Source: Nemertoderma westbladi
Lineage: Eukaryota > Animalia > Xenacoelomorpha
Length of the DNA stretch: 64,000 nucleotides
Direction: 5' to 3'
Assembly: GCA_032718475.1 (NCBI GenBank)
Contig: JAUCBJ010007967.1
Span: forward strand, 17,753-81,752
The notes below the pieces were generated by a model. The model did not search any database and was not told the DNA's origin. It worked only from the letters and a program-made list of their open reading frames with translations. A program made the translations under genes and the position numbers. Shown here in pieces: positions 4,136 to 31,829 of this stretch (positions are counted from its first letter, which is position 1; the number at the start of each line of letters is the position of its first letter).

Positions 4136-4945
4136 AATTTCCTTTATTTATCTACAAATTAACGGTCTACCTATTGAAATGGAACATGCCTAGGACAATG
4201 TCCCCCATTTCCCATCTCAAATTGACGATCAACAATAACAAAATAGACTAAATATAAACGTATTGCATTAAAGGCCGATAATCAAATTAAATATAAAATA
4301 CGTAATAATTTCTTTCATTTTCGGACTTTACTTAATTTCTTATAAAAAACGCAAATCATCTTGGTTTGATGATTGCTCAGATAAGTGAAAGAAGTCTTAA
4401 GTTCAAGAAACAACTGGACGCGCTCTACACAACTGTATAAATAAATATTACTATTACTCTATAAATATTAACTCAACATCAATTTGCAATATTTATTGTT
4501 AACTATTATTGCAAGTATAATCTATATCTTGAAAAGTTTACTGGTTATTAGGGAATATAAATTATAGGCCTAATACTGTAATAATATATATAATTGATTA
4601 AAAAAGTTAAATATATGAGCATGCCCAAACTGATAAGTGAAAGGAGTAAGCCAAACCCGCGGGTTTGTCTCCCCAATCACTTCCTTTGCCTCTTTCAATA
4701 AACTTTAGAGCAAATAAAGTCATATACACAAAATCAAATATAGTTAAAGTGTTTACTATTTCCAACGGACTATAAAGTAAAAGTATTTCCTTTCAATATT
4801 TTTCGGCCTTCGAAAATAAAACTCTAAAATATGGATACGACTAGTGTATATGAGTCCAGTCGAATGATTGATCAAAACCTACGATATACATCAGAGCGAC
4901 GATGATGTATATGTCTAGAGTTTGTCGCTCCGTGATATTATAGTC

Positions 4946-6174: not shown

Positions 6175-6308
6175 TCCTAACTACCTTCTAACCTATTCCC
6201 ATGCATAGCGCAAAAAACTTCGGAGATAAACTGGCCGTGACCAACTCACTTTTTGATGCCCAAGCTACTCCCCAATACTTGTACTAGACTACAGTAGTTA
6301 GAAAGACA

Positions 6309-8082: not shown

Positions 8083-8870
8083 GCACTATTATTTTTATCT
8101 TCTATGTATGTAAAACATTAATCATAGAACCTAGCAACCAATGAAATCTCTTCGCTACCACTGCCTATGTGAATTGAGGCTGGCTCCCCTTGACCCTTCA
8201 AAGATGGAACGAAATAATAATAATAGTTACCAATATTGTAAATCAGGAGTGGCCCCTTAACCCACTGGGCCATATTTATTGCCGCAATAATTATTTATTG
8301 CCGCAATAATTATTTATTACCGCAGGCTTACTTAAATACAGCTTTACTTAAATATGTTTGTGGATTTAATATCATGACGTACTTCGTGGTGGGATATTAT
8401 TATTATTTGTGTGAAATTAATTAGTTGTTAATTTACTTTTAATAAAACTATTTTAAGTTCAGTTAATAATTAAAGCGCAGCGTTTATTGCCGCAATAATT
8501 ATTTATTGCCGTTATAACAATTGGACGTCTTTTAGATATTTCATGATTTTTATGTAATTTAAATATTTTCATAAGTGATTTAAATATTTTCATGAGTGAT
8601 ATAATTATTTTCATACGTACATTATTATATTATTTCAATGTACTGCAGTAATTGTTATGATTTCGATCCTTTTGAGACGCCATAGTACGGGACGGGTTAG
8701 CGGTTACCACCCTCTGCCCTCACCCGGTATATACTCATCCCGCACCCAGTATATACTCACCCCGCACCCGGTACCTACAGACATAGATCAGTACTGCAGT
8801 AGATACGGGTCTCCCGGTAGGCTTAAATATTTTTTTCAGATATTTGCAACTCACGCGGAAACCAACAACA

Positions 8871-9260
8871 ATGGCGTTATTGTGTAGACGAATTTTAGGT
8901 GGACGATTCCGTCGTACAGGTATCCGAGAGCAAACGCGATGCTGTGACGTCATAAATTTATACGGATATTCAATCGCGCGATTTAGCGATTCAACAATCG
9001 GATCACCCGACAATAGTAAACTGGTAACCATGGTAACCGAGGAGAATGAAGAGATACAAGTATCCGAGACACGAACACTCGTACCGGTACCAGACGCAAC
9101 CCGAAACCGACCAGAGAAGATTAGCGACGACCCATCGGGCGCCCATATCTACTACTTCCCCGAACTAACTAACACCCAACGGGACCATCACAAATTACAA
9201 ATCACTGCAGTTAAATCTCATCTCCGTGTGCAATGTATAAATAGGTACAATAGTCCTACA
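8871..9260 (+). CDS. Possible first coding exon of an unidentified gene with an Arg-rich, mitochondrial-presequence-like N-terminus
   Basis: CAACAACAATGGCG start context; MALLCRRILGGRFRRTGIR; CpG-rich; candidate donors AG|GTACAA after 9244 or ACA|GTAAGT after 9260. Confidence 0.4.
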
Positions 9261-9462
9261 GTAAGTTATTAGTTTATTAATTATTTACTATTTATACTGT
9301 AATTACGTTTTATAATAAATTGTTCTGTACATTACATCTTTATCGTTGAGTCGGTCATTGTCACGCTCTCGGTAAAGTTGTACATGTACATAGTGTAATT
9401 ACGTTTTATATTCGTTTAGGTTAGCGTAGTGTAATATTGTATTTGTAACCAAGTAACATAAA

Positions 9463-9600
9463 GGACCCCCTTGGAAATAAGCTGCAAAGCTTTAGGGGTA
9501 ATCCTATATGTTATGTTGGACAATACCTTTATACCGGTACATTGTTTGGTGTATTTGTTATTGTTTTTACATAATGTATAAATAAATCTATCTATCTAAT
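9463..9600 (+). mobile_element. 3' tail of an L2/CR1-group LINE (stem-loop, AATAAA, (TCTA)n)
   Basis: GGACCCCCTTGGAAATAAGC...GCTTTAGGGGTAATCC followed by AATAAATCTATCTATCTA; a similar tail lies at ~25578-25652. Confidence 0.55.
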
Positions 9601-9650
9601 TCCACGAACCCACCCCGTATAAACCGATGGCCAGTCATCCGATGATCTGT

Positions 9651-10242
9651 CATCCACCTTGGATCTGTCCAACAACCAACTTGGATCCGTACAACATCCA
9701 ACTTGGATCCGTCCAACATCCAACTTGGATCCGTCCAACAACTTGGATCCGAACCAACAACTCGGATCCGTCCAACAACTCGGATCCGTCCAACAACTTG
9801 GATCCCTCCAACATCAAATTCGGATCCGTCCAACATCCAACTTGGATCAGTCAAACATCCAACTCGGATCCGTCCAACAACTTGGATCCGCCCAACAACT
9901 TGGATCCGCCAAACAACTTGGTTCCAACATCTTGGACCCGTCCAACAACTTGGAACCGTCCAACAACTTGGATCCATCCAACAACTTGGATCCGTCCAAC
10001 AACTTAGATCCGTCCAACAACTTGGATACGTCCAACAACTTGGATCCGTCCAACAACTTGGATCCGTCCAACAACTTGTATCCCTCCATCATCCAATTTG
10101 GATCCGTCCAACATTCAACTTGGATCCGTCCAACATCCACCTTGGATCTGTCCAACAACTCGGATCCGTCCAACAATTTGGATCCCTCCAACATCAAATT
10201 CGGATCCGTCCAACATCCAACTTGGATCCGTCCAACAACTTG
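9651..10242. repeat. Third block of the 18/22-bp satellite, ending at a TGTAAAAG element
   Basis: Ends mid-unit: CAACTTG|TGTAAAAG. Confidence 0.97.
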
Positions 10243-13200
10243 TGTAAAAGCTTCTGTGGGATATAACTGGCCCTTTTGCTTTGCAATCCAGTTTCCCCCC
10301 AGGCGCTGGAATACTCTAAAAAGCTCTCTAACTCGAATGATGTAAAGCGACCGGCTGATTGGCTGATTTGCTGTACGAGGGGCTTTTTGCTATGTTCTAT
10401 CGGCCAACCAGAGCTATAGCAGCAGAGTATGCAACCAGGACAACCGAGCGGAGTGACTCATTTTGTGTGCTGGCCAAGGGATGCAAAAATCCTGATAGTT
10501 CGGCATTTAGATATTCGTGGAACTTGTGGAATCTGGTGTTCTGCCAATGAGAGCTATTCCTCTCTGTGTAAAAAGATACCTGCAACGGTGTTAGGGACAG
10601 TAGTAGCTGTTTTTTCTTGATACTGTTGTGTTGTTGGTATCTAGGCCAGGAACACCGGCTCTAGAATCAATTCGTTTTCATACTTTAGAAGAAACATTAG
10701 TAGGCTTAAGATTATAGAGCGTATAACTGTTATCTTGTCACATCTTGTCATATCATATCTTAACCTACCGTCTTAATGCTGTTTACTGTTGTGTTTTGGT
10801 TGAATATTATTTGGAGAACATTTATAAAGAACCCAAATTTCCCAATTTTCTTGATACACTACAGGTTAGAGAGACGGGTTATATATAGCGATTGCGACTT
10901 ATATTATTGTGTATGTAGTGAATTTAATGCTATTTGATAAGCACTACATTGGTCCGTTGCTGTTCTCTCTATATATGATAAAATTCATTGACGGTCGGCA
11001 AATTAGTGAGCAGTATTGTGTGTTACCGGTAGTGTGCATGATTGTGACTGATAACTAAGCATTTCCTAAAGAATGCGCCTCATACGTGAATCATAAGCCT
11101 TACCGACTTACCGTTGTGATTAGTATAAGTCATATCTCTGTTTACTTAGATAGAGCGCCACGTCCTAAAGGAACTGTTAATATTTCCCGAAAGTGAATAA
11201 TATTAGTCAGAAATTATTTATTAACGATCAATCGAATAATACAGTAGGCTTCACTGCAATAATAATCTAAGCCCTCAGAATCCAGTCTCCCGGGAATATC
11301 CAGCGGGTGAATGGACGCGCACTAGGCTGGCTTCTGCTAATGTTGTGTTTATTGGTATTAAATATTTGTCATCTTCTAAAGTATATTTATAAACCAAAAG
11401 ACATATAAATTTTGGCAGGTTAAACTGCTAAAGGTCTTCAAAAGCGCGTACAATAACAGTTATTGTCTTTATTGCAGTAAGCAATAAAGTTGAAAGTACC
11501 GGTCAACCGGTAAACCTGAACCGGTACTTCTGTAGGTCAGTAGGCCCAACTGCCAGAACCGGTACTGCTGTAGGTCCGTAGGTCCAACTGCCAGAACCAG
11601 TACTTCTGTAGGTCCGTAGGCCTAACTGTCCTAACCGGTACTTCCAGTATAAGTACATTAGTATTATTCGATTTTGATTATTGTATACCGGTAGGTCTTA
11701 GTATTTAATCAGGGACTGCAGCCCTGGTTCTTTATTGAGACTTTACTTATTTCTGTCAGTTTTATTTCCTAGTAAGTTAATATTGAGCTGAAGACGTGTA
11801 AGTCTGCTCAGATTGTACAGATAATTGTAGGCCGGACTGTTGTCGGATTGTTGTTGGGTTTGGAGAGATTACGGCGTGTGTAGAGTTTGTCCGATAGAGT
11901 GCCGTTAGTAAGTTGGAGCAGCCATAGCTGTAAGGTCAATCCCCTCTTAAAGAATAAGTCGTACTACCGTGTTAGAACGCATACTAACTAACCGTTTTGG
12001 AATCTGCACATACTGTAGTTTATTTAGGCTTGACAGTATTCTGCCAGCGTTTTGGCCTGTGTTTGTTTGTGTGGTCTGTTCAGGTACCGTAATAGTTATT
12101 ACTCAGATATTTGTAGGCTGGATTGTTGTCTAGCTATTATTAGGTCTGAAGAGATTGCTGCGTGTGTAGAGTTTGTCTGATAAAGTGCCGTTAGTAAGTT
12201 GGGGCAGCCATAGCTGTAAGGTCAATCCCCTCTTAAAGAATAAGTCGTACTACCGTGTTAGAACGCATACTAACTAACAATTTCAGAATCTACACGTACG
12301 GTAGTTTATTTAGGCTTGGAGGTAGTCTGCCAGCGTTTTGGTTTGTATTTGTTTGAGTATTCTGTACGGGTAGCGTAATATTTATTATTCAGAGTTTATG
12401 CGATTATTCGCAACATTCATGTCCCCAAGTTTATTCCTACAGTAATTGTGCTTGTTATACATACCGTTATAGTTAAATTAACCCGGTACTACATGGGCTG
12501 CTTGGCGTAGGACAAGACTGGTGACTTTGTGCTCTGGTCACTCCAGCAGATGCCGTGGTTCTTTTAACTGTTCAAGTATATTTAACTACTGATTATTTGT
12601 TGTACCAGTACTTGTACCTAATTTAGGGTTTAGTGTACAGTGCTTTCCGAAAGTAATTAGTGTGTAGGCAGTATATTTGTGTTGTAAAGTGGTTAATAGG
12701 CACGCTGGATCTGGTAGTCCGCGGTAATTAACTTCTAGGTAGGAACACTCCGTGATACTTAACGTAGTACCTATAGCGATACGGCTATAGGTCGTCAGGC
12801 GGTGGTATTTTCCTATCTGGACAGTGCAATATATTTACTACTACTTATTATTTTCAAATACCGTAGTACCCTGTCTGTTGTAATAACCAGAATTCTAACC
12901 CTTTGTTAGACTGGTTTGTAGACTTCCTGTAAAATTACCCTAAAATTTCGTACGTAATAATATTTTTGTTGTGTTTTAATTAGAGATTTAATCTCACCCG
13001 TATCGTAAGTAATTTGTAGTATTAAGTAACTTAGGTAAATTAGAATTATCAGTTTTTAGTGTCCAATAAATAGCACTTCACTGGGAGCGCACAGCTTCTG
13101 TGTAGTGACTTCCCCCAGAAATAATAACATTTATTTCAAATATTGACAAAACCCATTTCAAACAGGTATATATCTATTATAAATCAACTCAAACGGTTTA

Positions 13201-13710
13201 TAAATAGTAAGCCTGCCATACAACAACTAGGTCTCAATATCAGTTGGACTACTGCTTAAATAACGGTAACAAAGTAAGTTAAAGTAACCAAGTAACCCTA
13301 AAATATTCAGAAATTCAATTATTCTAAAATAATTGACATACCGGTATTTACCATAGGCTTATTATATTTATTTCTATAAATTTGAGCTGAAATCATACCG
13401 GTATTCTGTAATTAATTCTAGTCCAGAATTATACTTATATACTATAAGTGTAAGCTGCATACCGGTACGATAGGCCTATTATATATTTATATATATTTGT
13501 GCCAAAATTATATACCTGTATTCTGTGACAAAACTAGTTTACAATACTTATATATACTATAAGCATACCGGTATTCTAATATATTATATATATATCACGC
13601 TACACTGAGTAGCAGTATCGGTAATTAATTATTAGGCCAACGGTGATACTGAATTACTAGACTTGCTTTAACTGTAATATAGCAGTAGGCATTCAACTGT
13701 ACAATCAAAC

Positions 13711-16700
13711 ATGGCTGACACAAGGCAAACTCTGTCAGATAGTCTCCTAGAAACAACAGCCTGTTTCTCAGATCAAAGTATAGAGAATCCCAGACCGAGG
13801 TCTGAAACCCCTCATACTGTAAGAAGGGCAACCCCTGCAGTGGTTGTGTCAGAACCTAGGTTGGTAGAAGCGATTTCGCAATTTGCGAAGTTAGTGAAGC
13901 GCCGTTGGTCTGCCATAGGCACTCGGGCCCAAGTCAAGCGGGATCAAGAAGAAGCTATAAAACAGCAGCAACCTCCTAGCCAAGAACCTAGTTCTCAGCG
14001 GCCCGATAGCTCCAGTAGTTCGGATACTGTTGAGCGGACGCCCGAACGCGGAGCGAAGATGGCGGATACGGTTTATGATGAGCGGCCAACCTATGAAGAA
14101 TCAACCGACGCCACTTCTTCTCAAGTGGAAAGCGAGGTGGAAAGCGAGGTGGAAAGCGAAGTGGAAAGCGAATTAACAGCAGCAGAGAGACCACGAACAA
14201 GAGACGCCATCGACATTTATCTGTCCGACTATCAGCGATTCCTAGGAGACGAAGAGTTGAGGAGACGGTCCAGCTGGACTTTCCCCTAATAGTGAAAGAA
14301 CCCAGCGTGTGTTGGACTCAATTGATGCTGAAATGTTAGCTGCTAACCAAGCTGAATTTGATGAAAAACTTCGCCTCGCTAGAGTCCAAGAAGAACAAGT
14401 AAAGAAAAGACGGATAGAGGAACAAAGGGCGGCGGCCATGGCAGAAGCAGAAGCGGAAAGAAAGGCAGCGGCGGCAGAAGCAAAGGCGGAAATGGCAGAA
14501 GCAGAAGCGGAAAGAAAGGCAGCGGCGGCAGAAGCAAAGGCGGAAAAGGCAGTGGCAGAAGCAGAACGGAGAGCGTCTGAGCAGACTACCCAACTGGAGT
14601 TGGAAAATCTGCAAGAGACGCAAGACAACATAAATAAACAGTTAACTGCTAGTCAAATGCAGATGATGAGACGATCTACTCCCAAACGCCAGGGATACAC
14701 ATCATCGGAGGAAAGCGAAACCACCGATCCTGAAGGCGGAGGAAATAGATCTCGTCTAAGCAGGCGTAGAAAAACATCTCACCGTCACAAATTGCCTGAT
14801 TTGCCCCCAGCTGTTAGAAGACAGCTAGCTAGCACAGACTTAGGTAGTACGGAACCCACAGACCAAACTATTCAGGTCAAAAGACTCCCTACAATAGTTG
14901 ATGAGCCTGAAATAATTAAGCCTGTCGTTCCCAAAGTCACTCCTGTGTTAGAGACCCCTGTACTTCCAGAGCTTAACTCTAAATTCCCTTTACATAGTAC
15001 TACACTGCCTGTACCCGGTAGAACAGTCCATGAGAATATCCCTGTCCTGATAGCAGAGAGAGAAATCAAAGATTTGTCTCCCGTCGTCCCACGTCAGCCC
15101 GCTACAATGTTGGCGACTCCCGCTTCGGCGGTCGAGTGGGTAGAAGAGGGACGGCGGGGGATGAATCTCCTGCTCGGACAGATGCAGGAGACTGTCCACC
15201 AGCTTAAGGGAACAGTAAGGGAAGGTAGGGCAGAATTGCAAGAAGTGCAGCAAAGTATCGCACTGGAACGCGACAAATTAGACAATATACAAAAGGGCAT
15301 ACCAATACCCCCTGTAACATTGTGTCAACCTGTTAGGTCTGAAGTATTACATGCGCAAGGTGTGGAGCCTACACGCATCTATACTGCTAGTGAAGTAGAA
15401 ACTCCTATAGCAAACCCTATTAAGGGTGATTATCGACCTGTTATTAATGATATCCCTTAAAGACCTGACAATGATCCGAGAAATTTATATACCGATAATT
15501 CGATATTAAATAACACGATGGCCCAAGAAAGCTTTACGCGTCAGATGGCTAGAACAGAAGCCCGCCAAGCGGTCAAAGTGGGAGAGATCGTCAAATTCAA
15601 TGGAGATGAGATGAAATGGTTACCTTTCAACGAATATTACAAAGATAGCATACAAAACTCTGTACTATCTAACGGAGAGAAACTTAGGTTCCTCATCAAG
15701 TGCTTGGAAGGACCTCCCAGGTTAATGGCGTTAAAGTTTATTGGACATCCAGAAGGATTAAGACAAGTATGGGATACATTAAACATCAGGTATGGTAACA
15801 AGGATAACATAGCTAAGTATTTGTATGCAAAATTAGTAGCCCCCCGACACTTCCTTAGTAGCGGGATTATAGAGTTTTCCGATGAGATTCAGGAAATCTG
15901 TAGACAATTGGACTGGTTAGGTAAGTCTCATGAATATCAGAGTTCCATGGTTATTGGAGCAATAGTCTCTACTTTACCAAAGGGTGGAGTATGTACACGC
16001 TGGGACAAGAAAGTGTTGTACATGACTGAACAACAACGACGAAGCCCTACCATGGCTGATCTCATGTCCTTCTTAGATAGTGAAGTAAAATTACAACTCA
16101 TAAAGCAGTCCAGAGAGAAAACATCGGAAAATAAGGTAAGTGAGAAACCCGTTTCTAGGAGAAGGGTAACACCAGTGTGTTACACTGACGACGGCGAAAG
16201 CCAAGCTTCTCAAGAAGAGGACAGCGGGAAAGACACAGCAAAATCTTACTATGACAACAAGACCTATAAAGACGTAAGTAAATATAAGTCTCGAACCAGT
16301 GACAGGAGAGAACAGGTTGCTAAGACTCCTCCTCAGTCTCCTAACAGAATGCACGGAAGAAAGCCCGAAGTAAGAACGAGAGTGCATCACGTTACCCAAG
16401 GGAAAGTGAGTAACATCAAACCAAACTGTGCGCTGTGCGACGGGCCCCACCGTTTGAGTGCGTGTGCTGAATTTCTAAAGAAATCCCTTGTAGACAGACG
16501 TACAGTCCTGTGGGACAAGCGGTTATGCTATAATTGCCTCAGACCAGGACACCAACGGCGAACCTGTTACTCCGACATAAAGTGTGCAAAGTGTGGCGCG
16601 AAACATCACATCTTGTTACACAGTGAGTTCGAACGAGACAAACTGAGTCAGGTAATTGAGCCCGAACTACATGTCCAATTCAGTGATGTAAACGACACTG

Positions 16701-17860
16701 ATCAAGAATCTGAGATGGAAGGATTCTATACTGACGAATTCTCCGACGCCAATGAATCCTGTTATCTAATCAATACCGCAGTGTATCGAGCACTTACTTA
16801 TGAAAAGGACACCAACAATGAGTTTCCCCCAACTACTTTTGCCAAACAACCATCTTGGAAAGCTCCAACTTCCAACGTAGGAATCAGAGAATTTCCTGTA
16901 GTGCAGGTAAGAGTTCACGGTCTTAACAAAAGTTACATAGTGAACGCCCTCCTTGACTCCGGCAGCACAGGAACATTCATCGATCAAGAACTAGCCGAAG
17001 ATATCTTTGCTGGACAACCCAAGTTCCGGACTAAATTGAATATGTCAGGAATTATGCAGGTTTGGAAATCTACCCTAACGGCAGACTACTATGTAGGTGT
17101 GTTGTCCACCCCCCAGGATAAATTAGGAGCACAAGGTATAAGGTCGGTAAAAATGGTGGCTATAAAGAACTTCGCTACTACCCAAGCAGACCTTTATAAT
17201 TGGGACGAGGATAAGAGCATCCAACATCTTAAGATACCTCGATTCCAGACAGATTATCCTGGAGTGCAAATACTCATCGGCCAAAACGCGCATGAGGCGC
17301 TCGAGACATTGGAGAAACGGCCTGCTCAACCGCAGCCACTACAAACCTATGCGGTAAGAACTAGAGTAGGTTGGTACTTCACTGGCCCTTCCCGTAGAAC
17401 TCTCAAAGAGAGATTACCTCAACAACAAGTATACCAAGTAAAGGAATGGGAAGTGGAGAGCAGTGATGTGGACGATCCAACTGAGGGAACACCATACTCC
17501 TCAGATAATGACGATATTAACTCCAATGTAGATCAATGGAGACATTGCCTTGGGACGATTAATCCAGCCGACATCGCTTCCAGAGGAGCAACTCTTCAAG
17601 AACTGATAGATACTCCAGGCTGGTTAGGTGGATCCGACTCCTTAAGTAAAGAAGAAGAAGAATGGCCTCCTCATCTTACCACGGCAGAAATTAGACAGGC
17701 CAAGGGAGCGGAGAAAGTAACACAACAACTCAATCGCCCAGCTAGTCGTTTATGTTTACTGGAAAGAGACCGAAAACTGTCCGGAAACTATGGAAGGCAA
17801 GATACTCTTCCTACGACCACTTCCCTAATCCGACAAATATCTAGGGACTCCATAACGTAA
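13711..17860 (+). pseudogene. BEL/Pao gag-protease polyprotein lacking RT and integrase cores; one frameshift (~14270) and one nonsense codon (15458-15460); 15518-17860 still open
   Basis: DUF1759-type KFNGD..W..F...LSNGEKLRFL; knuckles CALCDGPHRLSAC, CYNCLRPGHQRRTC, CAKCGAKHHILLH; protease LLDSGS; RNase H tail QWRH...NPADIASRG...W; integrase tail RPASRLCLLE; copy E reads through the frameshift and copy D has TAT for TAA. Confidence 0.92.
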
Positions 17861-17878
17861 TAACATATGGAGTGGGCG

Positions 17879-18287
17879 TGTGACTATATCATTTTATATT
17901 TGTTTTTATTTTATATTTATGTATGTATTATTATGTAATTTTATTATAATCGTTTTCTTTAATTTTATTTAGTAGAATGTTATTTTAGTGATTATTTAGT
18001 AGATTAGTGCAATATATTAGTGTTTATTACGTACGTAATTATTTATAATATATATTTAGTGCGACGGCGAGAAATAATTATTTTTTCTCTTTCCTTACTG
18101 TCCGTATCATATTATAAATACGTGACTATAGTAAGATGAAATGTCCGTACTTATTAAAGTACAATAAAGCTCCTACTATACTTAAGTATTATTGGTAGGC
18201 AGAGTATTAGGAATGCAAAGTTCAGATCCTCGTGTCTCGGCTAAACCAAGCTCTGGGTAGACCTTGGAAACGACTTGCCTCTTCACA
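17879..18287 (+). mobile_element. Candidate orphan 3' LTR of the BEL element
   Basis: Purine-rich GGAGTGGGCG just after the ORF stop, then TGTGA...TCACA inverted ends with internal AATAAA; no 5' partner seen. Confidence 0.6.
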
Positions 18288-18412
18288 CTGACATTGCTTC
18301 GTGCGATATTGCTCTTCTACCTTATATTAAATAATACATATAGTAGCGTGATGTCCCTATAACAGTAGCGTAAAACGCAAATAAATCTGTTAAACCTTTT
18401 GACCATCTGTAA

Positions 18413-18672
18413 TTCTAGTCGATTAAAATATCGCGGCACCCACCGATATACTTGAAAGACAAATTCTAGAATCAGTGGTTAACGTCCCCAGACAAGTTCT
18501 GGAATAAATCGGTGCCCATCTTAAATATTAATTTAATATTTATTAAAATCTGTAAAATTCTGATCCTTTAAAATTTCTAGTCAATTAAGATATCGCAGCA
18601 TTTACCGATACTCTTAAAAGACAATTTTATAGAATTAAGGATCCTATGTCCCCAGACATGCTCTGGAATAAA
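18413..18672. repeat. Two diverged ~96-bp direct repeats (period ~162 bp)
   Basis: TTCTAGTC.ATTAA.ATATCGC...CCCCAGACA...TCTGGAATAAA at ~18413 and ~18575. Confidence 0.75.
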
Positions 18673-19489
18673 ATTGTGTCAATTTTACCATCAAATAATA
18701 AAATTCACGGGAATAAATTTAAATTCATATCTTAAATGAATTTCATAAATTGTCATTTTGTGCAATTTATAACATTCCCAAAATTCCATTAATTAATAGA
18801 TCATGGGAGCGGAGATTCATCCTATTGAGTGTATTAGAGTGCGAGAATCTCCAACATATAGTCAATAGCCGATAAAAATAATAAAATCATGCATAAAGAG
18901 AATATTGACAATTAAAGAATTATTATTAAATAGCATCCCAGATCTGTATGCATGAGAATTACCCTAATTCTACCGCTAGCATTCCATAATGTCACCATAG
19001 CAACACCCACGCTAGAATTAGAAGCAAGTTAAAAGAACAATAGAAAGCTTGTCCCATTGCATAGCATAGAGAATACATAGCACACTGTTAGTATCCAAAG
19101 ATACACAGTAATAACGTGACATTCTGGAAGGCACTGACTAACGGACAAATGGCCTGTATGTGTACAATTGGTGACAGTTGTGTGGAATTTGTGCGTTTAT
19201 AGGTGAATGTTACTGCTAAGGTGTGTTTACAGTAGCTAGTCGCAATTGTGAAAGTAGCCCAACTCTCCTATAGAAAGAACCTAAAGTGGATTCAAGCCTT
19301 TGGGACGGACAGTGGAGTGACTTGTGCCGGTTATCGTTGTTGTGCTGTTGCTACATGTTGGCGTAAACACCGCGACGACGGTACATCGGCGCTGAGAATC
19401 CCACTGTCCGGGGGCAAAGAGAAGTAGGCAGCGACGCCCGCTCGCCTAAATATAAACTTATTTGATATTAATAAACTCAGATAGCAGAT

Positions 19490-20485
19490 ATGACGGAGTT
19501 GATAGAAGATGATCTTGGTATTAGGGAGCGATATACTCTACCTTTACAAGCATTTGTGGATAGCTTAATACGCGGTGAAGCCGATCCAACCATTACGGAG
19601 GAAGATGGTTGTTATATCGAACCGCCGATGTCCCAAGAGCAACTTGCGCGTGAATTGGACTATCGAAAATTCACCACTCGCTATACGAATCGTAACAGTA
19701 CGTATATGGACTTCCTAACTACCGGCCATCCTATCGATTTACATGATACGGACGATGTATACACCGAAAGGGAAATGGTTCTATTTAAATATCATACCCA
19801 GCGGAGTCGTAACGATAAACCGAGAATAGATCACGAAAATTCTATTCGTAACCGACTGGGAAGACGAACCAATATGCCTAGAATCTGAGGAGATTCAGCC
19901 TATCGCGCCCGGAACAGCGACAACGATTACATCCTAGAATGGTATCAAGGTCCACAGTGTCTCACTGCGTACGATTATCGACATGCCAACTATGTTTCTA
20001 GGCAACGTTGTCGGTTATGCGCATCGAGAGACCACGATACGCCCATGGACACCGACGTCCGCTGTTCCTATTTCCAAGAACAACCGACTATGGAAATTTA
20101 TTGCGCATATTGCAGACTCAATAACTTGCATATTTTTGCGGTTTGCCCTCAATATATGACTCAATGTCACCATTGTCAACTAAAGGGACATGCCAGTTTC
20201 GATTGCCCTTTTAATCACGATTTGGAAAGCGTAGATGAAATGATCACACTACGTTACATCAGAGCTTGGGAAGCGAACGCTGATTTACACTGTGATTCGC
20301 GCCATCGCTATTATCCCGGACGCGCTTACGAAGGAGTTTATGCGTTCCATCCTTATCTATTCGCTTCGGTTGAACAGAAATCACGCATATCAAGTTACGA
20401 GCTACTGAAGCGCGTCGGAGAATGTATTTCAACCAAATTCGTACGCAAATTTCTCAGGAGTGTTAATCCTAGCGACCTTCTGTAA
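19490..20485 (+). pseudogene. ~330-codon ORF with three CCHC-like zinc knuckles and one in-frame TGA (19886-19888)
   Basis: ORFs 19490-19888 and 20045-20485 share a frame with no other stop between; CRLCASRDH..C, CAYCRLNNLH...C, CHHCQLKGHASFDC; the final stop is supplied by the next element's TGTAA. Confidence 0.7.
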
Positions 20486-21268
20486 AAGCTTCTGTGGGAT
20501 CTAGCTGGCCCTTTTGCTTTGCGGTCCGAGTTCCCCCCAGGCGCTGGAATACTCTAAAAAGGCTTTCTAACTATATATATATTCCCCTCGCCCGCAAGGT
20601 ACCGTAATAGGTGTTTTAACGGACATAAAAGTCATTCTTCTAGATTTGTACTTTAGAGGACATAATCCGCAATCTCGTGACGCGATAAGCTGGGTACTCT
20701 TGAAAACAGTGTCGCTACCATGACGACGGCTAACAGCTGATATTGCCACGTCGACATTTCTTTGTTTCTTTGTTCTCTCGTGGTTCGGTTGACCAATCAG
20801 AGCGATTTTTTCTGTAGATGTGGAGCTTTGGGCAGATCATGCTAGAGCGTTCAGTCTTACTGTTTTTTATGATACTGTTGTTTTTGTTGGTATCTAGGCC
20901 AGGAACAACGGCTCTAGAGTTAACTTGTTTCATACTTTTAGAAGAAACATTAGTAGGCTTAAGATTATAGAGCGTATAACTGTTATCATATCAACTCACA
21001 TATCAACTCAATCAGTGCATATCTTGTCATATCTTGTCATATCATATCTTAACCTACCGTCTTAATGCTATTTACTGTTGTGTTTTGGTTGAATATTATT
21101 TGGAGAACATATATAAAGAACCCAAATTTCCCAATTTTCTTGATACACTACAGGTTAGAGAGAGACGGGTTATATATGGCAATTGCGACTTATATTGTTG
21201 TGGTTTGTAGTGAATTTAATGCTATTTGATAAGCACTACATTGGTCCGTTGCTGTTCTCTCTATATAT
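20481..21268 (+). mobile_element. TGTAAAAG head, copy B (truncated)
   Basis: First ~90 bp and last ~400 bp match 10243-10975 and 59743-60515; the middle differs from copy A. Confidence 0.85.
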
Positions 21269-21622
21269 TTATACGATGTTGACAACTACGACTTTAGAGG
21301 GATTGTAATATTCATATTAAAACAATAAAATAGGACATGGGGTCTATTCCCTCAGATACTACCTAGCATTTAGGGCCACTTGGGCCACTGTTAGTACTCA
21401 GGCACTAGGCCCATCAAAAAACACACAACAAAATACCAAATCGATTTTAGTGCTACATAAACCCAACCCAACTACCACAAGAAAAATTGCACCAAACCAT
21501 ACAGTAACTACAGGTTCCGGTAAGTATTGCACGAAATAGGCTATCCCATAAATTACGAAAAATATAGGACATTTTGTCCGCCGAAAAAGGTAAGTCTAAG
21601 TAATAAATTTTATAAAAATAAA

Positions 21623-21694
21623 AGGGTTTCGGAGATTTAAACACTGAACCCTGGGATTCGTGGTTCTCCTCATCAGCAGTGTGCCACGAACCCC
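21623..21694 (-). ncRNA. Hammerhead ribozyme with rearranged (non-circularly permuted) strand order, copy 1
   Basis: Minus strand GGGGUUCGUGG C ACACUG CUGAUGA GGAGA A CCACGAAUCCC AGGGU U CAGUGU UUAAA UCUCC GAA ACCCU: both core motifs, stems I, II, III and an extra 11-bp helix. Confidence 0.8.
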
Positions 21695-22302
21695 ACCTCT
21701 ACCCTAACAAAACTGCACCACTAAATTAAGATAATGACCAATAAATTAGAAATCCTACCGTACCACCCAACAGAGTTGAAACCACCCACCCCCAAATGTA
21801 TGTTACCATCAGCCCCAAATGCATAAACATGATTTCCCAACTGAATGCAACCAACCCCAATTAGCACCTACCGGTATGTACAGATATATGATCAGATTTT
21901 TTAAACAAAATTGCGCAGATGTCAGGAAATACCCCTTTAAATATATAATTATACGATGTTGACAACTACGACTTTAGAGGGATTGTAATATTCATATTAA
22001 AACAATAAAATAGGACATGGGGTCTATTCCCTCAGATACTACCTAGCATTTAGGGCCACTTGGGCCACTGTTAGTACTCAGGCACTAGGCCCATCAAAAA
22101 ACACACAACAAAATACCAAATCGATTTTAGTGCTACATAAACCCAACCCAACTACCACAAGAAAAATTGCACCAAACCATACAGTAACTACAGGTTCCGG
22201 TAAGTATTGCACGAAATAGGCTATCCCATAAATTACGAAAAATATAGGACATTTTGTCCGCCGAAAAAGGTAAGTCTAAGTAATAAATTTTATAAAAATA
22301 AA

Positions 22303-22374
22303 AGGGTTTCGGAGATTTAAACACTGAACCCTGGGATTCGTGGTTCTCCTCATCAGCAGTGTGCCACGAACCCC
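22303..22374 (-). ncRNA. Hammerhead ribozyme with rearranged strand order, copy 2
   Basis: Identical to 21623-21694, 680 bp away. Confidence 0.8.
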
Positions 22375-22872
22375 ACCTCTACCCTAACAAAACTGCACCA
22401 CTAAATTAAGATAATGACCAATAAATTAGAAATCCTACCGTACCACCCAACAGAGTTGAAACCACCCACCCCCAAATGTATGTTACCATCAGCCCCAAAT
22501 GCATAAACATGATTTCCCAACTGAATGCAACCAACCCCAATTAGCACCTACCGGTATGTACAGATATATGATCAGATTTTTTAAACAAAATTGCGCAGAT
22601 GTCAGGAAATACCCCTTTAAATATATAATTATACGATGTTGACAACTACGACTTTAGAGGGATTGTAATATTCATATTAAAACAATAAAATAGGACATGG
22701 GGTCTATTCCCTCAGATACTACCTAGCATTTAGGGCCACTTGGGCCACTGTTAGTACTCAGGCACTAGGCCCATCAAAAAACACACAACAAAATACCAAA
22801 TCGATTTTAGTGCTACATAAACCCAACCCAACTACCACAAGAAAAATTGCACCAAACCATACAGTAACTACA

Positions 22873-25800
22873 CGTTCGTGGGGCCTTCGCGCAGCACGAG
22901 GCCCAGTTATGAGATACAAATTAAAATTGTGCGACTGTATCACAAAATCAGGTTATGAGAGATTAACCAACACCACCAATTAATCAAAGAAAGGGGGACA
23001 GTACGTGTTCACCCCTTTTAATCTGCACCCCCCCCCCCCCCCTCCCTTCCCACCCACCAATACATAACCGCGACATCTACCACCCACGGAAGGGTAGCAC
23101 GAACTTATTTCCAAACGCACGTTCAATATGCAAAGCCAGGTGGTTTATAGGAATATAATCAATGCAGTACTCGTCTTCATTATAAGCCTCTTTGCGTTCG
23201 ACCTGTTTTGTATTAAAATATATTTATTAAACGCAGGCTGACGCTCTTTATAATAATAATACCTAGGGATGCCAGCTTCCAGACTTTCAATCTTTACTGC
23301 CGCGCAAACCCCGCAGAGGAAGTTTTGGTTTGAGAGATCAAGCCCATCGGGCGATTATTGAAAAATGGTCACACTTCACATCAAAAAATTAACATCCCCA
23401 TCACCAAAAATGGTTTCCATATCCTAAAAGTATGGTATCTAAAGTGTAGGAAATGGGTATGGATGAGTAAATATTTGATCGCTTAGAAAAAATACTGGGA
23501 TGTAAAGTCTGCTGAAAATTGATAACATAATTATCCTAATAATTTACGTTTTTAAAAGTAATTTAAAAATATTATGGTATACATTACCATGCAAAATGCA
23601 TGCATATTTTGGAAGCACCACTGCAGTAAACCATTTCACAAAAATAATTATTGGATTTCAGTAAGCCATCTTACGGAAACAAATGATTTGCTCACTAGTG
23701 CTGGAAATTCCGTCAGTCACAGAAATTAGCAGTAAAGTTTAGTTATTCTGAAACAGAAAGGCTTTCTGGCAAACTTTCTTATCCACAAATTCAGATATTC
23801 TCCTGACCACAATGCATGACAAGGACTTTGCTGTGAAATTAGCGTAGGCTGACTGGTGACTGATGAATTATCAAATATTATATTTTCCATGAATGCAGGA
23901 TCCATATTTGTAAAAGCCTTTGCTGAATTGCCCCGTTATTTTTATTATCTTTTACATTAAAATACTCTGTAGTTGATTTAATAAGTGTAAGAGACCGTAT
24001 TATTGTTGTATCGGTGTTTTTAGAGGATCTAAGACCTATTTCCTCCGTATGTGTACTGTGAAAGGCATATTTTATGATTCTATGGCAATTCGTGACGCAA
24101 AAGGGTGATAGCTACTCTTGAACAGTAGTTACTATGACTACGGTTAACAGCTGACATTCATACGTGTTGATTTCCTTTGTTCTACGGCGTCTCTCAGTTC
24201 AGTCAGCCAATGAGAGCGTTTTTGTGGCTCCTTGTACAGAAAATTTCCGAGAAATGACGCAATGCCTATGTGCAGTGTTTACATTCAGTCTTGAGCCAAA
24301 GAAAGAACGGCTTGGAAGTATTTTGTGTTGTACTGTTTTTTAGTCGTACACTGGTAGGTTTAATTATAAAGGGCATATATCCTTTAACTGATAAATCAAG
24401 AGATAGGAGGGGGGTGGGACTGGACGCAAATCCCATCTTGGCGAATTAATATCCCGCCTCAATATTAATTTCTAAATTTTGGGAAAGGAGCAGGTTACAG
24501 TGGCACGTTATTTTAACCAAAACAATAAAGTAAACACAATAGAACAGGTTACAGTTTTATTTTTGAGAGTAATCAGCTGTTGTTATTTGCGTCCAATTTC
24601 CCCTGGAGAGGGATGAATTTTTATTGCGTCCAGTCCCCCCCCCCCCCCCCCCCCTATCTTGAAATCAAATACCAAAAATATATTTATTATATGAACAATC
24701 TATTTGGAAATTGTAAGTTCGGCCTATCTCTTTACCATAAGCTCAGTATCTTTATCTGGTGTGTTTTTATTATTTTACCAATTATTTAATATGTTTGATA
24801 GAATTGAACAACACCGCCCAACACAACCAACTCTCTATCCGCCTCGAGCATCGAGAATACGAGAAACTCGATCGAAATACCTGCTTATCCCAGTAGTATC
24901 CGTCCGTAGTCTAGTCACCGGACCGCTGCGGTTTACTCCCGTAGAACAGTAGAATTCCCGCAGCTTCCGACCCAATTCGACAACGAATTCGCTTCACACT
25001 TTCGCGTCACAGAGAACGTAATCCAGTGCGATAACGTCTGCCCAACGTTCAACCATTTCCCCCAGGCGATCCCAGGATCCGGGCCGCCGCTAAACCCAGA
25101 TCGCAATCCTCGTCGATTCGTCCAGTCGTCGACGTAAGTCAGTAAGTGGGACTCTTCCCACCGCACTCCAAGGTGGGTGACCGGAGTGAGGCATGATGAA
25201 CTTGGCAGTGGCCCGCATTACGATCTGACCGACCGCCGTATTCCCAGTGTCTGAGTGTAGTAAATACCCAAATAGAATCGTACTGACAAACAAGCAATTC
25301 CGTAGTATTCCCCCGTTAATCACCTCTTGAAGCAACTCGGCTGCTCGGGTCCAGATACATCGGACTGTCGGGAGCGTTTCAGACATCAGACAGTAATGGA
25401 GCGGCATTTGCGAATATTTCCAATGGTTTTATAATAAATAAGGGGATTCAACAGTTCAATGCTAAAACAAATGGATTATTCCTAACCCCACCCCAATACA
25501 GCAATATACCTAACAGTATATAGCTTAGGTACCACAGTCTGACTAGCTTTAAATATTAGAGTATGAAAATTATTATAGGACCCTCATGGAAACGAGGTAT
25601 ATACCTCATGAGGCTATCCTTACACCAGAACCCTTTATTTAAGTAAATAAACATTTTATAAGTTGACTATCTACATAAATCAGTATTGGTGCTCCTAAAT
25701 ATCTAGTGTTATTAGGCCTACTTGTACTGTAGGCCTAATATCGTAACGTAATCTTTATAAATGTATTATTGTGAATTTTAAAAGGTTTAATTATGTGTAA

Positions 25801-26471
25801 AAAACAATCAATCAATCAAACCATAATCAGCACAGTCAGCCTACGCATGGGTGGTACCTACGGTGCGCACTACAACGGCTGAACGGCAGTACAGCAATAC
25901 GGTGTACCGTGCCAATGACTGAATGATTAGCGGTAACTACTGAACTATCTAAACTATTATATTATTATTACCGGTACTAGGCTAATTAGGCCTAAACTAT
26001 AATCACCGCAAGGGTTTCCAGGGCCATGTTTAGATTACATGATATGGCATGTCTGCAGTGTATGGTACCGGCTGACCTGTATTACAGCCTGACAGTACCG
26101 GTACAAATGGTACATGCAGATTGGCAGACAGCCCCTATGTTTTGCAAAATTTGTCAGAAAACCAGCTGATTTATCCTACAGTAATAATAATTTAACGCAT
26201 GTTAATTTTGGATAAATAAATATATTATAACTACAATAACAGTTACACTGATGCTGCACGAAGGCCCCACGCAAATTCTACTTGGAAAATTTTCAAACTT
26301 TTGCCAAACAACATGTGTACCAAGTTTGGATAGATTTCATCAAGGATTGGCCGAGTTATTAACGTTTAAAATAAAATACTGAAAAAAACCACGCGACAGA
26401 ACGACAGAACGACAGGTTGATTAATGGTACCACTACGCTAAGGCTCTCTCACTTCGTGGCTCGCCCCACAA
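22873..26471 (-). mobile_element. Non-autonomous Helentron/DINE-1-like (HINE-type) composite element, inverted relative to 44277-49458
   Basis: Terminal GTGGCTCGCCCCAC, (CGACAGAA)n microsatellite, and long reverse-complement matches to 44.3-49.4 kb. Confidence 0.7.
23909..24392 (+). mobile_element. Diverged TGTAAAAG head, copy C, inside the HINE-like element
   Basis: Shares TGTAAAAGC, TAACAGCTGA, CCAATGAGAGCG and AACGGCT landmarks with the other heads. Confidence 0.65.
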
Positions 26472-28170: not shown

Positions 28171-28415
28171 CTATAATCATGTATACAGTGTACAATCCAT
28201 TCAAAATCTTCCCAATACGAATCCAAGATCCTTTCACATTCTATCCCAAAGCGCACTAATCCAAATAAGTTTGTATACCTCTTACGCTCGCTAAGTATTT
28301 TTTTGCAATATACTTTTTTAAATTACTCATACTCATATTCCTGAGTTCAAGTGGGAATAATATTCGCTCTGTCTCAATACCATTGGTTAATCTGTTCGTG
28401 TATTTTACCTTGCAG

Positions 28416-31399
28416 GCCGGGGATATCAAACGAATGTCACCTCGCCTCCAGTCAATCTCCGGTAGTCATCACAACTGCCCTAAACCACAGAGCGGTTTGT
28501 CAGCTCAGGCGAAACCTCATCAAGCCCCGACACATTCGAAGCCTTCACAACAAGCACCTGCCGTAGTGAAACCCCTACAAACACCCTCACAAGCTAAACA
28601 AACGCAGCATAATATTATAACACCAGTAATGCCAAAACTACGACCTAATTTGTCATCCCCCAATACAACCCCTACAGAATCGCTATCAATTACACCGTTA
28701 TCGGTACCACACAGCACATCAACCGTTTCAGTAGCCTTAACACCGCGCAGCTATTCTCCTGTATCATTAAGCGAGAGTATATCGAACTCCATATCAGTAC
28801 CAAACACAATCCAAGCGATATCTGTACCACATACATCCTCAACAGTTCGGCAATCAAAGTCAATCGACTCTGAGTCGCAACAACAGTCGCCCAAACCCCG
28901 CCTTCAACTACTTGGGAGGGCGCATTCATTTAGTCGGACAGCCCATCCTATACCTATCGTAGTAAACCGACGTGCTCCATTGCCCGGGTGTGCTACCAGA
29001 CACCCCCGAGTGAGCCCCACCTCCCAGACACCCGGTGGTTCGCGCCCCAGTGTAGAGAGCCCCACCTCCCAGACACCCGGTGTCTCACGCCCCAGTCTAG
29101 AGAGCCCCACCTCCCAGACACCCGGTGTCTCACGCCCCAGTCTAGAGAGCCCCACCTCCCAGACACCCGGTGGTTCACGCCCCAGTCTAGAGAGCCCCAC
29201 CTCCCAGACACCCGGTGGTTCACGCCCCAGTCTAGAGAGCGCCACCCCCCAGACAGATGTTATTGCTCTGGAAGTGTCTCGGGTAAACCCCACGCTGCCC
29301 GCTTCCGTTGTCACTGACCCGTCTTCTTTATCTATCGGGTCGCCGCTGAATTCTCCCGCGAGCTTCCGGTCTCCCGGGGCCGGTAGAGCAGGGCTCTCCC
29401 CGGTCACCTATTTCCCTCGTTACAACTCGTCCGCTCCCTCATCCCCCCTCAATCCCCGCGGTTTACCCTCCTCCAGCCCGCGTAGTAAACCCGATGCCAA
29501 ATCTCCCGGTCAGTTCAATCTCCGCAGGGCCTCAGTTCTCTCAGGACTTTCGATATCTCGAAGAGACTCCGCCAACAGTCGCAGGCCGGGCGCAGGCTCG
29601 CTCGCCAAAGTAACTGTTAATGTGTGGCCCGCATCCAGTTCTGTGTCCACAGCAAGCACTCTCTCAGTAACCAGTCCTAGTTCCATAGCAACCAGTGCCT
29701 CGTGCTCAGTGACTACTCCGGTTTCCATAGCAACCAGTGTCTCATGCCCAGTGACTAGTCCGATTTCCCTAGCAACCAGTGTCTCAGGCCCACTGACTAG
29801 TCCGGTTTCCATGGCAACCAATGTCTCATGTCCAGTGACTAGTCCGGTTTCCAAGGCAACCAGTGTCTCGTGCCCATTTACTAGTCCGATTTCTATAGCA
29901 ACCAGTGTCTCATGCCCAGTGACTAGTCCGGTTTCCCTGGCAACCAGTGTCTCGTGTCCAGTGACTAGTCCGATTTCCATAGCAACCAGTGTCTCAAGCC
30001 CGGTGACTAGTCCGGTTTCCAAAGCAACCAGTGTCTCGTGTCCAGTGACTAGTCCGATTTCCATAGCAACCAGTGTCTCAAGCCCGGTGACTAGTCCGGT
30101 TTCCAAAGCAACCAGTGTCTCGTGTCCATTGACTAGTCCGATTTCTATAGCAACCAGTGTCTCATGCCCGGTGACTAGTCCGGTTTCCATATCAACCATT
30201 AGCCTGCAGCCTACAACAACCACTGTTTCTACAGCGATGGTGAACCCATTGCCCGTATCCATTGTTTCCGTAGCAACAATTAACCCGATGGTCTCGACTA
30301 ATCCGACTCTCTTGGCGACTACTACCAACCATGTAGTATCGCCTTCCTTCCATTTGGTAATCCTCCCCTCGCCAACGTCCCAGACTGGGGCCGCCCCCAC
30401 ACTGGTACCTCTCATACCGACCTCCAACACGAATCCAGCCATCACACCCACCGCAGGCCCCACCATTCCCACTGGTAGTATCCGAATCCACATACCTGTG
30501 TCATCAGTACCGGGGACTGTAGCCCAATTTGCCTCTTTGTCCTCCATCCCTTCCGGCCACACATTGACTAATACTAACACAATGCTGCCGAGCAGGAAAC
30601 ATTGTCGCGTCCGGAATACCCTGTCCACCCCGTTATTATCCACTGTACCTATAATAACGTCCATCGATGGAAAAATATATAGTGAAATTGTTAGTATAGG
30701 ATCGGAAGAACCTAAAAGTATACCAGTTTTATTAGCGAAGAAGTACTCAGAGCGAAAAATCGCAGCGAAACCTGAAACTGGAACTGAATTCGGGATGAAA
30801 CCGACTCGTCGGAAATTTTCTCCAAAACTTCCGTCTCCCTCAATGAACCGAATGATGTCGCCGTTGGTCCTGCGTAAACTCGCGACTTCCACTCGGGCCG
30901 AATACAAGGTGATCACCAAGTCCGGGATTCCGTCGTCCGTGGCGGGTCCCAGTGCCACCTCGGTGGTGGAGCCCGAAGGAAGCTGGGATGGCTCAGTGGA
31001 GGGGCCCCAAACGGCCATGGCTATGCAGCCGATCCGCGGACTTGTTCGTAAACGTCGCGAGGTCAAGTCTGCTACGATCCTGGATGACATCCAACTCGTT
31101 GACGCTACGCCGGCGTCCCCTTCCTCGGAGGTTAGCCTCCAACTCAAAGCGGATCCGGTACTAGCTGGTCCCGCGGTTCCACCACTATCAGGTTCAACAG
31201 CTTCGGGTTCCGCCGTTCCAGCACCTTCTGGTTCCGCCGTTCCACCACCGATCGGTTCCACTACTCCGGTACTGTCAGCTGATCCGGTCGGGAAGACGGC
31301 GGAAACTCCGGAGATCGTGGCATCCACCTCGTGCGACACGAAGGGGAGTCCACGTAACTCTAGGAAAGTTCGGGAATACAGTCTACCAGACGGGAGAAG
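28416..31399 (+). CDS. PWWP2: Large internal exon of a PWWP2-like chromatin reader (S/T/P-rich, with 15-aa and 14-aa repeats)
   Basis: Acceptor TTTTACCTTGCAG| ending at 28415; ~1000 open codons; phase-2 donor AAG|GTTAGT joins in frame to 37138 giving LPDGRRFRVDDVVWAK; upstream exons not identified. Confidence 0.75.
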
Positions 31400-31829
31400 G
31401 TTAGTATATGGCAGCGGGTGGGTTGACATGACATACTAATACTATAGAAATTGGACCCCATGATACCGAGACCAATAAGATATGGTAAGCCCACTGTAGT
31501 ATACTTGCAAGGTGGCCCAAATAATTAAATATTTTGGAATAGTACATGAATGATCATATTTTTAACACCTCCCAGTCCCATCTCTGCAGTGTTATTTTGT
31601 TAATTGGGCACTATTTTATTTGGTTTAAAACTTAAGTTAATGTCATCTTGGGTTGTGTCTGTGCCGGTACTGGCCTACCTGCATCTATTTGAATAATTGA
31701 TTGGATAATTTATTTGAATGATTTGATCTACTAATAATATGGCTAATGTAGAAACATTTTCAGAACAAACTACAAAAAGACTTAATCCTGTTACAAATTC
31801 AAAAGAGTGTTTCAATGGATGATGAAAAA

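What the first reader, a model, noticed from the sequence alone, without database searches (positions are those of the whole stretch)
21269..22872. 680-bp ORF-less tandem repeat as a candidate retrozyme / circular RNA system
About 2.4 apparently identical units, one ribozyme per full unit, with ends at arbitrary points in the unit. This is the pattern expected from reverse transcription of a self-cleaving circular RNA, as known for metazoan non-LTR retrozymes and Penelope-linked repeats, but with a longer monomer and an atypical ribozyme. Cleavage at both sites would release a 680-nt monomer.
Basis: partly seen in the sequence, partly recalled or inferred. Interest (0 to 1): 0.78.

Follow-up and report, generated by a model that had tools for sequence, protein, structure and literature searches.

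The report
Scrambled hammerhead ribozyme in tandem retroelement
A 680-base non-coding repeat in an animal genome carries in each full copy a hammerhead-type RNA motif whose parts come in a rare scrambled order published for only two soil sequences; the same order appears in published Naiad jumping genes thought to lack such a motif, so the repeat is likely a self-cutting passenger of those elements, though cutting and circle formation are untested.

Summary
The array is real: 2.36 identical 680-bp units (21269-22872), no long ORF, one ribozyme-like motif per full unit on the minus strand. The 'atypical ribozyme' has the order core-cleavage site-GAAA, the non-circularly permuted type-CSG hammerhead of Eckert et al. 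2023 (two soil-metagenome sequences, both cleave). All four helices pair perfectly (28 paired positions against at most 18 in 150 shuffles), with the published spacing but different letters. Reading published Naiad Penelope-like consensi, described as lacking canonical hammerheads, I found 8 complete CSG motifs and 8 of a related split order among 54 families (partial search, read by eye). The array sits exactly after a TATATAT run, the Naiad target type, and the unit is multi-copy in three studies. Best reading: a non-autonomous Naiad-type element, working like a retrozyme but with a CSG instead of a type I hammerhead. Cleavage, transcription, circles and the partner element are not shown.

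The parts
21269..22872 (-). Tandem array, 2.36 identical 680-bp non-coding units (21269-21948, 21949-22628, partial 22629-22872; the last two bases are shared with the next repeat)
21623..21694 (-). Type-CSG hammerhead motif, copy 1: joining helix 21694-21684 with 21663-21653 (11 bp), stem I 21682-21677 with 21646-21641 (6 bp), core CUGAUGA 21676-21670, stem II 21669-21665 with 21635-21631 (5 bp), GAAA 21630-21627, stem III 21627-21623 with 21652-21648 (5 bp)
   Evidence: layout compared with the published alignment
22303..22374 (-). Type-CSG hammerhead motif, copy 2 (identical, +680)
21646..21647 (-). Predicted cleavage site 1, after a GUU triplet (between 21647 and 21646); inferred by analogy
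   Evidence: analogy
22326..22327 (-). Predicted cleavage site 2 (between 22327 and 22326)
21647..22326 (-). Predicted 680-nt monomer released by double cleavage; not more folded than shuffles (z -0.09)
21262..21268 (+). Target: TATATAT run at which the array joins its host repeat; 6 of these 7 bases match the unit's own preceding bases (microhomology)
   Evidence: three empty-site copies end the same run at 10976, 54304, 60517
20475..21268 (+). Host: LTR-like repeat of a BEL/Pao-type (DUF1759) element, cut off at the array; not part of the element
22871..23350 (.). Start of another abundant repeat that truncates the array on the right; not part of the element

Best explanation
The array is 2.36 identical copies of a non-coding 680-bp unit, each full copy holding a hammerhead motif in the non-circularly permuted CSG order, and it is likely a non-autonomous passenger of Naiad-type Penelope-like retrotransposons whose RNA is predicted to cut itself into 680-nt monomers. 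Shown: the array, the motif with four perfectly paired helices, its match to the published CSG layout, the TA-run junction, the multi-copy state. Inferred: (1) the minus strand is transcribed through the tandem; (2) each motif folds as a compact double pseudoknot, the 11-bp joining helix replacing the loop I-loop II contact, and cleaves after GUU; (3) the monomer (5'-OH, 2',3'-cyclic phosphate) may be closed to a circle by a host ligase as shown for type I retrozymes, or the uncut multimer is used; (4) a Naiad RT/GIY-YIG protein supplied in trans nicks TA-rich DNA, primes at 21268 and copies the RNA into the plus strand for more than two unit lengths; (5) a later insertion of another repeat removed or displaced the far end. 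My odds by step: CSG identity 0.93, cleaves 0.75, Naiad-type partner 0.7, circle is the template 0.4.
For: Motif: block order, core, A-U pair and four helices match the two-sequence published CSG alignment, including single-base spacers beside the joining helix and a 5-nt UUAAA/UUAAU linker, while the stem letters differ; both published CSG RNAs cleave. Score 28 vs at most 18 in 150 shuffles. Naiad link: Craig et al. report no canonical hammerhead in Naiads but 8 'half cores' with the second half 35-50 nt away, and (TA)n targets; the window's spacing is 39 nt. In passages of their File S5 I read 8 complete CSG motifs, three at the very 3' end of records that by file order are Naiad-1, -2, -3 of Nippostrongylus, one with the same GUU triplet, all with different but pairing stems, and 8 motifs of a split order. 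Junction: exactly after TATATAT, three empty-site copies in the window. Multi-copy: single contigs almost or fully identical to the unit at depth 4354 and 3376 against 15-18 for long contigs with unique flanks in run X2, unit held in 3 studies of organism A. None of 27 listed substitution sites and none of the 12 indels shown (7 hidden) falls in the 72-nt motif; it lies in the longest site-free gap, 110 nt. Three contigs share only the motif region at 86-87% (records 8, 14, 15).
Against: No cleavage, transcript or circle shown. No Naiad ORF could be tied to this genome (no genome held). The Naiad motifs were read by eye from search passages, not scored by script, and most record names are inferred from file order; all 8 CSG cases lie at nematode positions, while the host here does not look like a nematode (lineage unresolved). 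The variant depletion is weak (P 0.049 by sites, 0.33 by clusters). The monomer is no more folded than shuffles (z -0.09), unlike the 'highly self-paired' circles described for retrozymes. An upstream segment can pair with the stem II and III strands in the nested fold, stem III is short and the triplet is GUU, so the motif may be slow or blocked; 8 of 9 tested Xenopus retrozyme dimers did not cleave. In the one Penelope-like element tested in vitro, ribozyme cleavage was not needed for insertion and priming needed no homology. No target-site duplication can be read. 0 of 111 pattern-hit loci from viral and metagenome contigs formed the stems.
Confidence: 0.66

Rival explanations
1. Partial-tandem (pseudo-LTR) remnant of a Naiad-type element: the unit is the 3' non-coding end of an autonomous or deleted element, copied from a linear tandem transcript; the ribozyme is real but no free circle exists or matters.
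For: Partial tandems and 5' truncation are the normal form of Naiad insertions; RT starts at fixed internal RNA sites and uses uncleaved RNA in the anole element; left end may be recurrent; monomer not specially folded; a 1210-nt contig at depth 463 shares 112 bp of the unit and goes on for about 1.1 kb of other sequence (X4 record 17).
Against: Here more than two identical units follow each other with no ORF remnant between them, which needs a tandem or circular template made of the unit alone.
Confidence: 0.2
2. DNA-level satellite or local duplication (or assembly over-expansion) of a unit whose ribozyme is a relic; spread by unequal crossing over or by another transposon, with no RNA stage today.
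For: Units are 100% identical, as after a recent duplication or a consensus-polished assembly; the unit junction is crossed in other runs only with 26 letters on the short side, below the tool's 31-letter bar; Li et al. describe local amplification of retrozymes as minisatellites.
Against: Motif intact in all four helices and free of listed variants; clean insertion into a host repeat at a TA run with empty sites elsewhere; other loci with different flanks; the junction sequence occurs in runs X4 and X5.
Confidence: 0.09
3. The motif works not as a compact CSG fold but as a canonical type I hammerhead assembled from two neighbouring units (core and GAAA blocks of one unit, cleavage block of the next) or as a dimer, and is moved by a canonical Penelope or LINE partner.
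For: In a multimer the blocks also occur in canonical order across units; dimeric cleavage is known for axolotl retrozymes.
Against: It would need a loop of about 680 nt; the 11-bp joining helix (pair probability 0.998) holds the blocks of one unit together; single-copy CSG RNAs cleave alone.
Confidence: 0.05

Closest known systems
Type-CSG hammerhead ribozymes (Eckert, Friedrich, Weinberg, Weinberg 2023, PMC10085705; main text parts 1-6 of 8 and supplement passages read)
   Same: Block order C-S-G; core; stems I (6 bp) and II (5-6 bp); helix joining I and II; 5-nt AU-rich linker; double pseudoknot.
   Different: Published set is two unique sequences (5 in all) from soil metagenome DNA with no context; here an animal genome, a multi-copy tandem repeat, other stem letters, a longer joining helix (11 vs 8 bp), no spacer before stem III and GUU instead of GUC.
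Metazoan non-LTR retrozymes (Cervera and de la Pena 2020, PMC7229834, parts 2-4 of 6 read; Li, Clavereau, Pollet 2026, bioRxiv 10.64898/2026.07.22.740005, parts 1-3 of 5 read, supplements not seen)
   Same: Non-coding tandem units, one hammerhead per unit, two consecutive motifs, GC under 50%, many copies, proposed Penelope-like partner.
   Different: Defined by a type I hammerhead and searched with type I descriptors, which miss this motif; unit longer than the 150-450 bp of the first paper; monomer not specially self-paired; circles not shown here.
Naiad Penelope-like elements (Craig et al. 2021, PMC8557442; passages, section 6, table S1 and search passages of Files S2, S5-S7 read)
   Same: (TA)n target, tandem arrangement, U-rich sense strand, and by my reading of File S5 the same CSG motif or a split form of it in the 3' non-coding part.
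   Different: No RT or GIY-YIG ORF in the unit; no sequence link to a particular Naiad shown; the paper states that Naiads lack canonical hammerheads and did not resolve the half cores.

Membership tests
Type-CSG hammerhead ribozyme | Block order CUGAnGA, cleavage site, GAAA | tested here: met
   definition
Type-CSG hammerhead ribozyme | All conserved core bases (CUGAnGA, GAAA, A15.1-U16.1, non-G at 17) | tested here: met
   core intact, triplet GUU; a GUU case also in a Naiad passage
Type-CSG hammerhead ribozyme | Stems I, II, III adjacent to the blocks, plus helix joining I and II | tested here: met
   6, 5, 5 and 11 bp, one G-U in all; shuffle control
Type-CSG hammerhead ribozyme | Covariation of the stems | tested here: inconclusive
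   Stems differ in letters yet pair between the window, the published pair and 8 Naiad passages, read by eye, not aligned or scored; letters of diverged copies in this species not shown
Type-CSG hammerhead ribozyme | Site-specific self-cleavage | not testable with these tools
   needs in vitro transcription
Metazoan non-LTR retrozyme | At least two consecutive tandem units each with a complete hammerhead, no coding capacity | tested here: met
Metazoan non-LTR retrozyme | Hammerhead of type I | tested here: not met
   order is CSG; no Rfam hammerhead match at gathering or E up to 10
Metazoan non-LTR retrozyme | Many genomic copies | tested here: met
   contig depths of thousands vs about 15-20 for unique-flank contigs in X2; rough, not a copy count
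Metazoan non-LTR retrozyme | Highly self-paired monomer | tested here: not met
   z -0.09 on 20 shuffles; plus strand z 0.23
Metazoan non-LTR retrozyme | Target-site duplication when present | tested here: inconclusive
   right end replaced by another repeat; host continuation not found beyond it in the window
Metazoan non-LTR retrozyme | Expressed as linear and circular monomer RNA | not testable with these tools
   only contigs of DNA runs could be laid
Naiad Penelope-like element (autonomous) | ORF with N-terminal GIY-YIG and RT | tested here: not met
   no ORF in the unit; none of 16 window ORFs scanned has a GIY-YIG hit
Naiad Penelope-like element (non-autonomous derivative) | Insertion at (TA)n | tested here: met
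   junction after TATATAT, one locus only; preference stated
Naiad Penelope-like element (non-autonomous derivative) | Sequence shared with the 3' end of an autonomous Naiad of the same genome | not testable with these tools
   no genome held; candidate contigs seen only as pieces
Naiad Penelope-like element (non-autonomous derivative) | 5' truncation, inverted 5' copy, 30-40-bp tail | tested here: inconclusive
   5' side lost to another repeat; loose ends near the left end only a hint

The most novel reading that the evidence does not exclude
Hammerheads of the reversed cyclic order (type CSG and a split form opened between CUGAnGA and stem II) are the standard ribozyme of the Naiad clade across animals, missed by type I-III descriptors; their non-coding derivatives, such as this 680-bp unit, form a second class of animal retrozymes that make circular RNAs; and the two soil CSG sequences of 2023 came from such elements of soil animals.
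Probability: 0.5. Interest if true: 0.86.

Novelty: new variant of a known kind. Interest (0 to 1): 0.74.

Why it matters
Type-CSG hammerheads rested on two similar sequences with no known host or role, and their authors called the evidence for biological relevance weaker. This puts one in an animal genome inside a young multi-copy repeat and points to many diverged examples already in print but unrecognised. It would overturn the statement that Naiads spread without hammerheads (used to argue that hammerheads may merely parasitise Penelope-like elements), show that retrozyme surveys built on type I descriptors miss a class, and give natural double-pseudoknot hammerheads for structure work. 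Each step is cheap to test.

Tried and rejected
Rfam: 0 matches at gathering in the window; at E up to 10 over 21200-22900 only a chance rimP leader match, E 5.5. Own-genome search impossible, no genome held. Exact 36-nt motif: 0 in viral contigs. Degenerate CSG pattern: 1 locus in viral contigs, 110 in metagenome contigs; 0 of these 111 reached a helix score of 16; the pattern fixed a 5-nt linker, which most Naiad motifs do not have, so this is no evidence of absence. No RNA holder listed; run X5, guessed RNA of another organism label, held one 219-nt piece at depth 2 and was not used as evidence of expression. Run X7 gave nothing (no proof of absence). No ribozyme-like fold found on the plus strand by my scan. 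ViennaRNA cannot score pseudoknots, so its zero probabilities for stems I and II are not evidence. Protein atlas gave no answer twice. Host lineage: a neighbouring aminotransferase is 44-52% identical to animal proteins of many phyla, none close. Summed depths over bins were not used as copy number or to infer truncation polarity. Look-ups of earlier findings by sequence, by strict words and by place returned nothing. The window RT at 50525-52030 is LINE-like (RVT_1 with DUF6451) and was not taken as the partner. The last supplement search showed only the first 7 places per term and the first 6, and motifs split by line breaks are missed, so the Naiad counts are lower bounds; several passages with a core but no clear stems (file parts 12, 17, 18, 19, 23, 24) were left uncounted.

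Full report
The array. Positions 21269-22872 repeat with period 680 and no mismatch: 1604 bp, 2.36 units. The unit has no frame above 81 codons, is 38.5% GC and T-rich on the minus strand. The window is from an animal: BEL/Pao-type DUF1759 ORFs, a LINE-type RT and a branched-chain aminotransferase 44-52% identical to animal proteins of many phyla, none close. No genome is held.

The motif. On the minus strand each full unit has CUGAUGA (21676-21670), then a GUU cleavage block (21649-21647), then GAAA (21630-21627). Known types I-III are circular permutations of the order core-GAAA-site; this order is the reverse. Four helices pair fully: stem I 6 bp, stem II 5 bp, stem III 5 bp including the A-U pair, and an 11-bp helix that encloses the core and joins stems I and II. 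A scan for this order scored the two copies 28; 150 dinucleotide shuffles of the whole window reached at most 18, and 143 gave nothing. Rfam has no match.

What it is. Eckert et al. 2023 (PMC10085705; main text parts 1-6 of 8 read) named this order type CSG, found two unique sequences in soil metagenome DNA, and showed that both cleave at the predicted site at 0.004 and 0.026 per minute. Their alignment has the same succession of helices, single-base spacers beside the joining helix and a 5-nt UUAAU/UUAAA linker; the window motif keeps the layout with other letters in every stem. It differs in a longer joining helix, no spacer before stem III and GUU. Their text does not mention retrozymes or nematodes, and Penelope only in a reference.

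The likely partner. Craig et al. 2021 (PMC8557442) state that Naiad Penelope-like elements lack canonical hammerheads, prefer (TA)n targets, and that eight have half a core in the 3' UTR with the other half 35-50 nt away. The window spacing is 39 nt. Searching their supplement for core words and reading the passages by eye, I count 8 complete CSG motifs: three at the ends of the records before the headers Naiad-2_Nbra, Naiad-3_Nbra and Naiad_Hcon (by file order the three Nippostrongylus families), two near file part 13, two near part 15 and one near part 16 with one extra base after the core. All lie at nematode positions of the file. One has a GUU triplet. Stems run 4-6 bp (I), 4-5 bp (II), 6-12 bp (III) and 9-17 bp (joining), with different letters. 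Eight more passages show the same cyclic order opened between the core and stem II: three near-identical Acropora records (one imperfect), one near part 8 with a weak stem I, one each near parts 12 and 19, two near part 24. That is at least 16 of 54 families from a partial search; these were not scored by script, several passages were left uncounted as unclear, and most names are not fixed. Searches of the paper library for type-CSG, for non-circular or non-circularly permuted ribozymes, and for Naiad with ribozyme or hammerhead listed no paper that makes this link; most subscription journals are not searched. Two earlier AI notes on other genomes reach a similar reading for an SGC-like order; I saw them after the reading above and they are not independent support.

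Ends. Left: the host, an LTR-like repeat, stops exactly after TATATAT; three other copies in the window continue past this point without the array. Six of the seven last host bases equal the unit's own preceding bases. With the minus strand as RNA this is the priming end of target-primed reverse transcription (inference). Three of 18 loose-end rows shown (96 hidden) join other flanks within a few bases of the same unit position, a weak hint of a preferred end, in line with fixed internal RT starts in the anole element (PMC11167929, parts 1-2 of 4 read). Right: the array stops where another abundant repeat starts (82 and 98 loose-ended contigs in X1; second copy in the window), and the host continuation is not found beyond it. 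So no target-site duplication can be read and the ends do not prove a circular template.

Family. Four runs of organism A in three studies hold 57-79% of the unit's sampled words. In X2 single contigs matching the unit have depth 4354 and 3376 against 15-18 for long contigs with unique flanks, roughly a couple of hundred copies; X4 gives 367 against 24-38, so the number is uncertain. None of 27 listed substitution sites or 12 shown indels (7 hidden) lies in the motif; P 0.049 by sites, 0.33 by clusters; the motif is in the longest site-free gap. Three contigs match only around the motif at 86-87%, and a 1210-nt contig at depth 463 shares 112 bp and then diverges: sister families or the partner, letters not shown. 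The unit junction is crossed by contigs of X4 and X5 with 26 letters on the short side, under the tool's bar of 31.

Mechanism. Most likely the minus strand is transcribed through the tandem, each motif folds locally into a double pseudoknot and cuts, and a Naiad-type protein in trans copies either the ligated 680-nt circle or the uncut multimer into TA-rich DNA. Circle formation by RtcB is shown for type I retrozymes (PMC7229834) and is only an analogy here. Against: the monomer folds no better than shuffles; an upstream segment can pair with the stem II and III strands; 8 of 9 Xenopus dimers did not cleave; cleavage was dispensable for insertion in vitro; 0 of 111 pattern-hit loci in viral and metagenome contigs held the fold.

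Verdict. It works like a non-LTR retrozyme but fails that family's type I criterion; it meets every sequence criterion of type CSG, with cleavage untested. New variant of a known kind; interest 0.74, mainly because it gives the CSG permutation a host and exposes an overlooked ribozyme in Naiads.

Noticed in passing
Craig et al. 2021 File S5 passages, outside the window: A split hammerhead order, opened between CUGAnGA and the 5' strand of stem II, in 8 Naiad passages (Acropora and others); it breaks the published assumption that the core block cannot be interrupted.
   Followed up: partly
window 22871-26470 and 44329-48247: An abundant repeat with GC-rich hairpins at both ends and a 56-bp internal tandem; at both window sites where its start is seen it sits in the same short target context, once in the ribozyme array and once in another copy of itself.
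   Followed up: partly
window 10239-21268 and 53663-64000: BEL/Pao-type elements with very long LTR-like repeats (10607-14443 matches 60126-64000 at 94.6%) and gag-like DUF1759 ORFs (15518-17860, 57477-59747) without an RT hit; two further short ORFs at 19475-20485, one with a zinc-knuckle-like Cys/His pattern.
   Followed up: partly
window 39610-40677 (-): Intron-free 355-aa branched-chain aminotransferase ORF, about 50% identical to animal proteins of many phyla; retrocopy or intron-poor gene.
   Followed up: partly
window 49688-53243: 147-bp satellite interrupted by a LINE-type RT fragment (50525-52030, RVT_1 with DUF6451).
   Followed up: no
window 1-10242: Long arrays of 18- and 22-bp repeats with strong strand skew that form open frames of up to 1282 codons.
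   Followed up: no
unit positions 21340 and 21859 (runs X1 and X2): A joint with 10 inserted letters at depth 172-389: a variant lacking 518 bp that include the ribozyme, or a 172-bp ribozyme-free sub-repeat.
   Followed up: no
window 28383-31439 (+): 1018-codon low-complexity Ser/Thr/Pro-rich ORF built partly of 42- and 45-bp repeats, no Pfam match.
   Followed up: no
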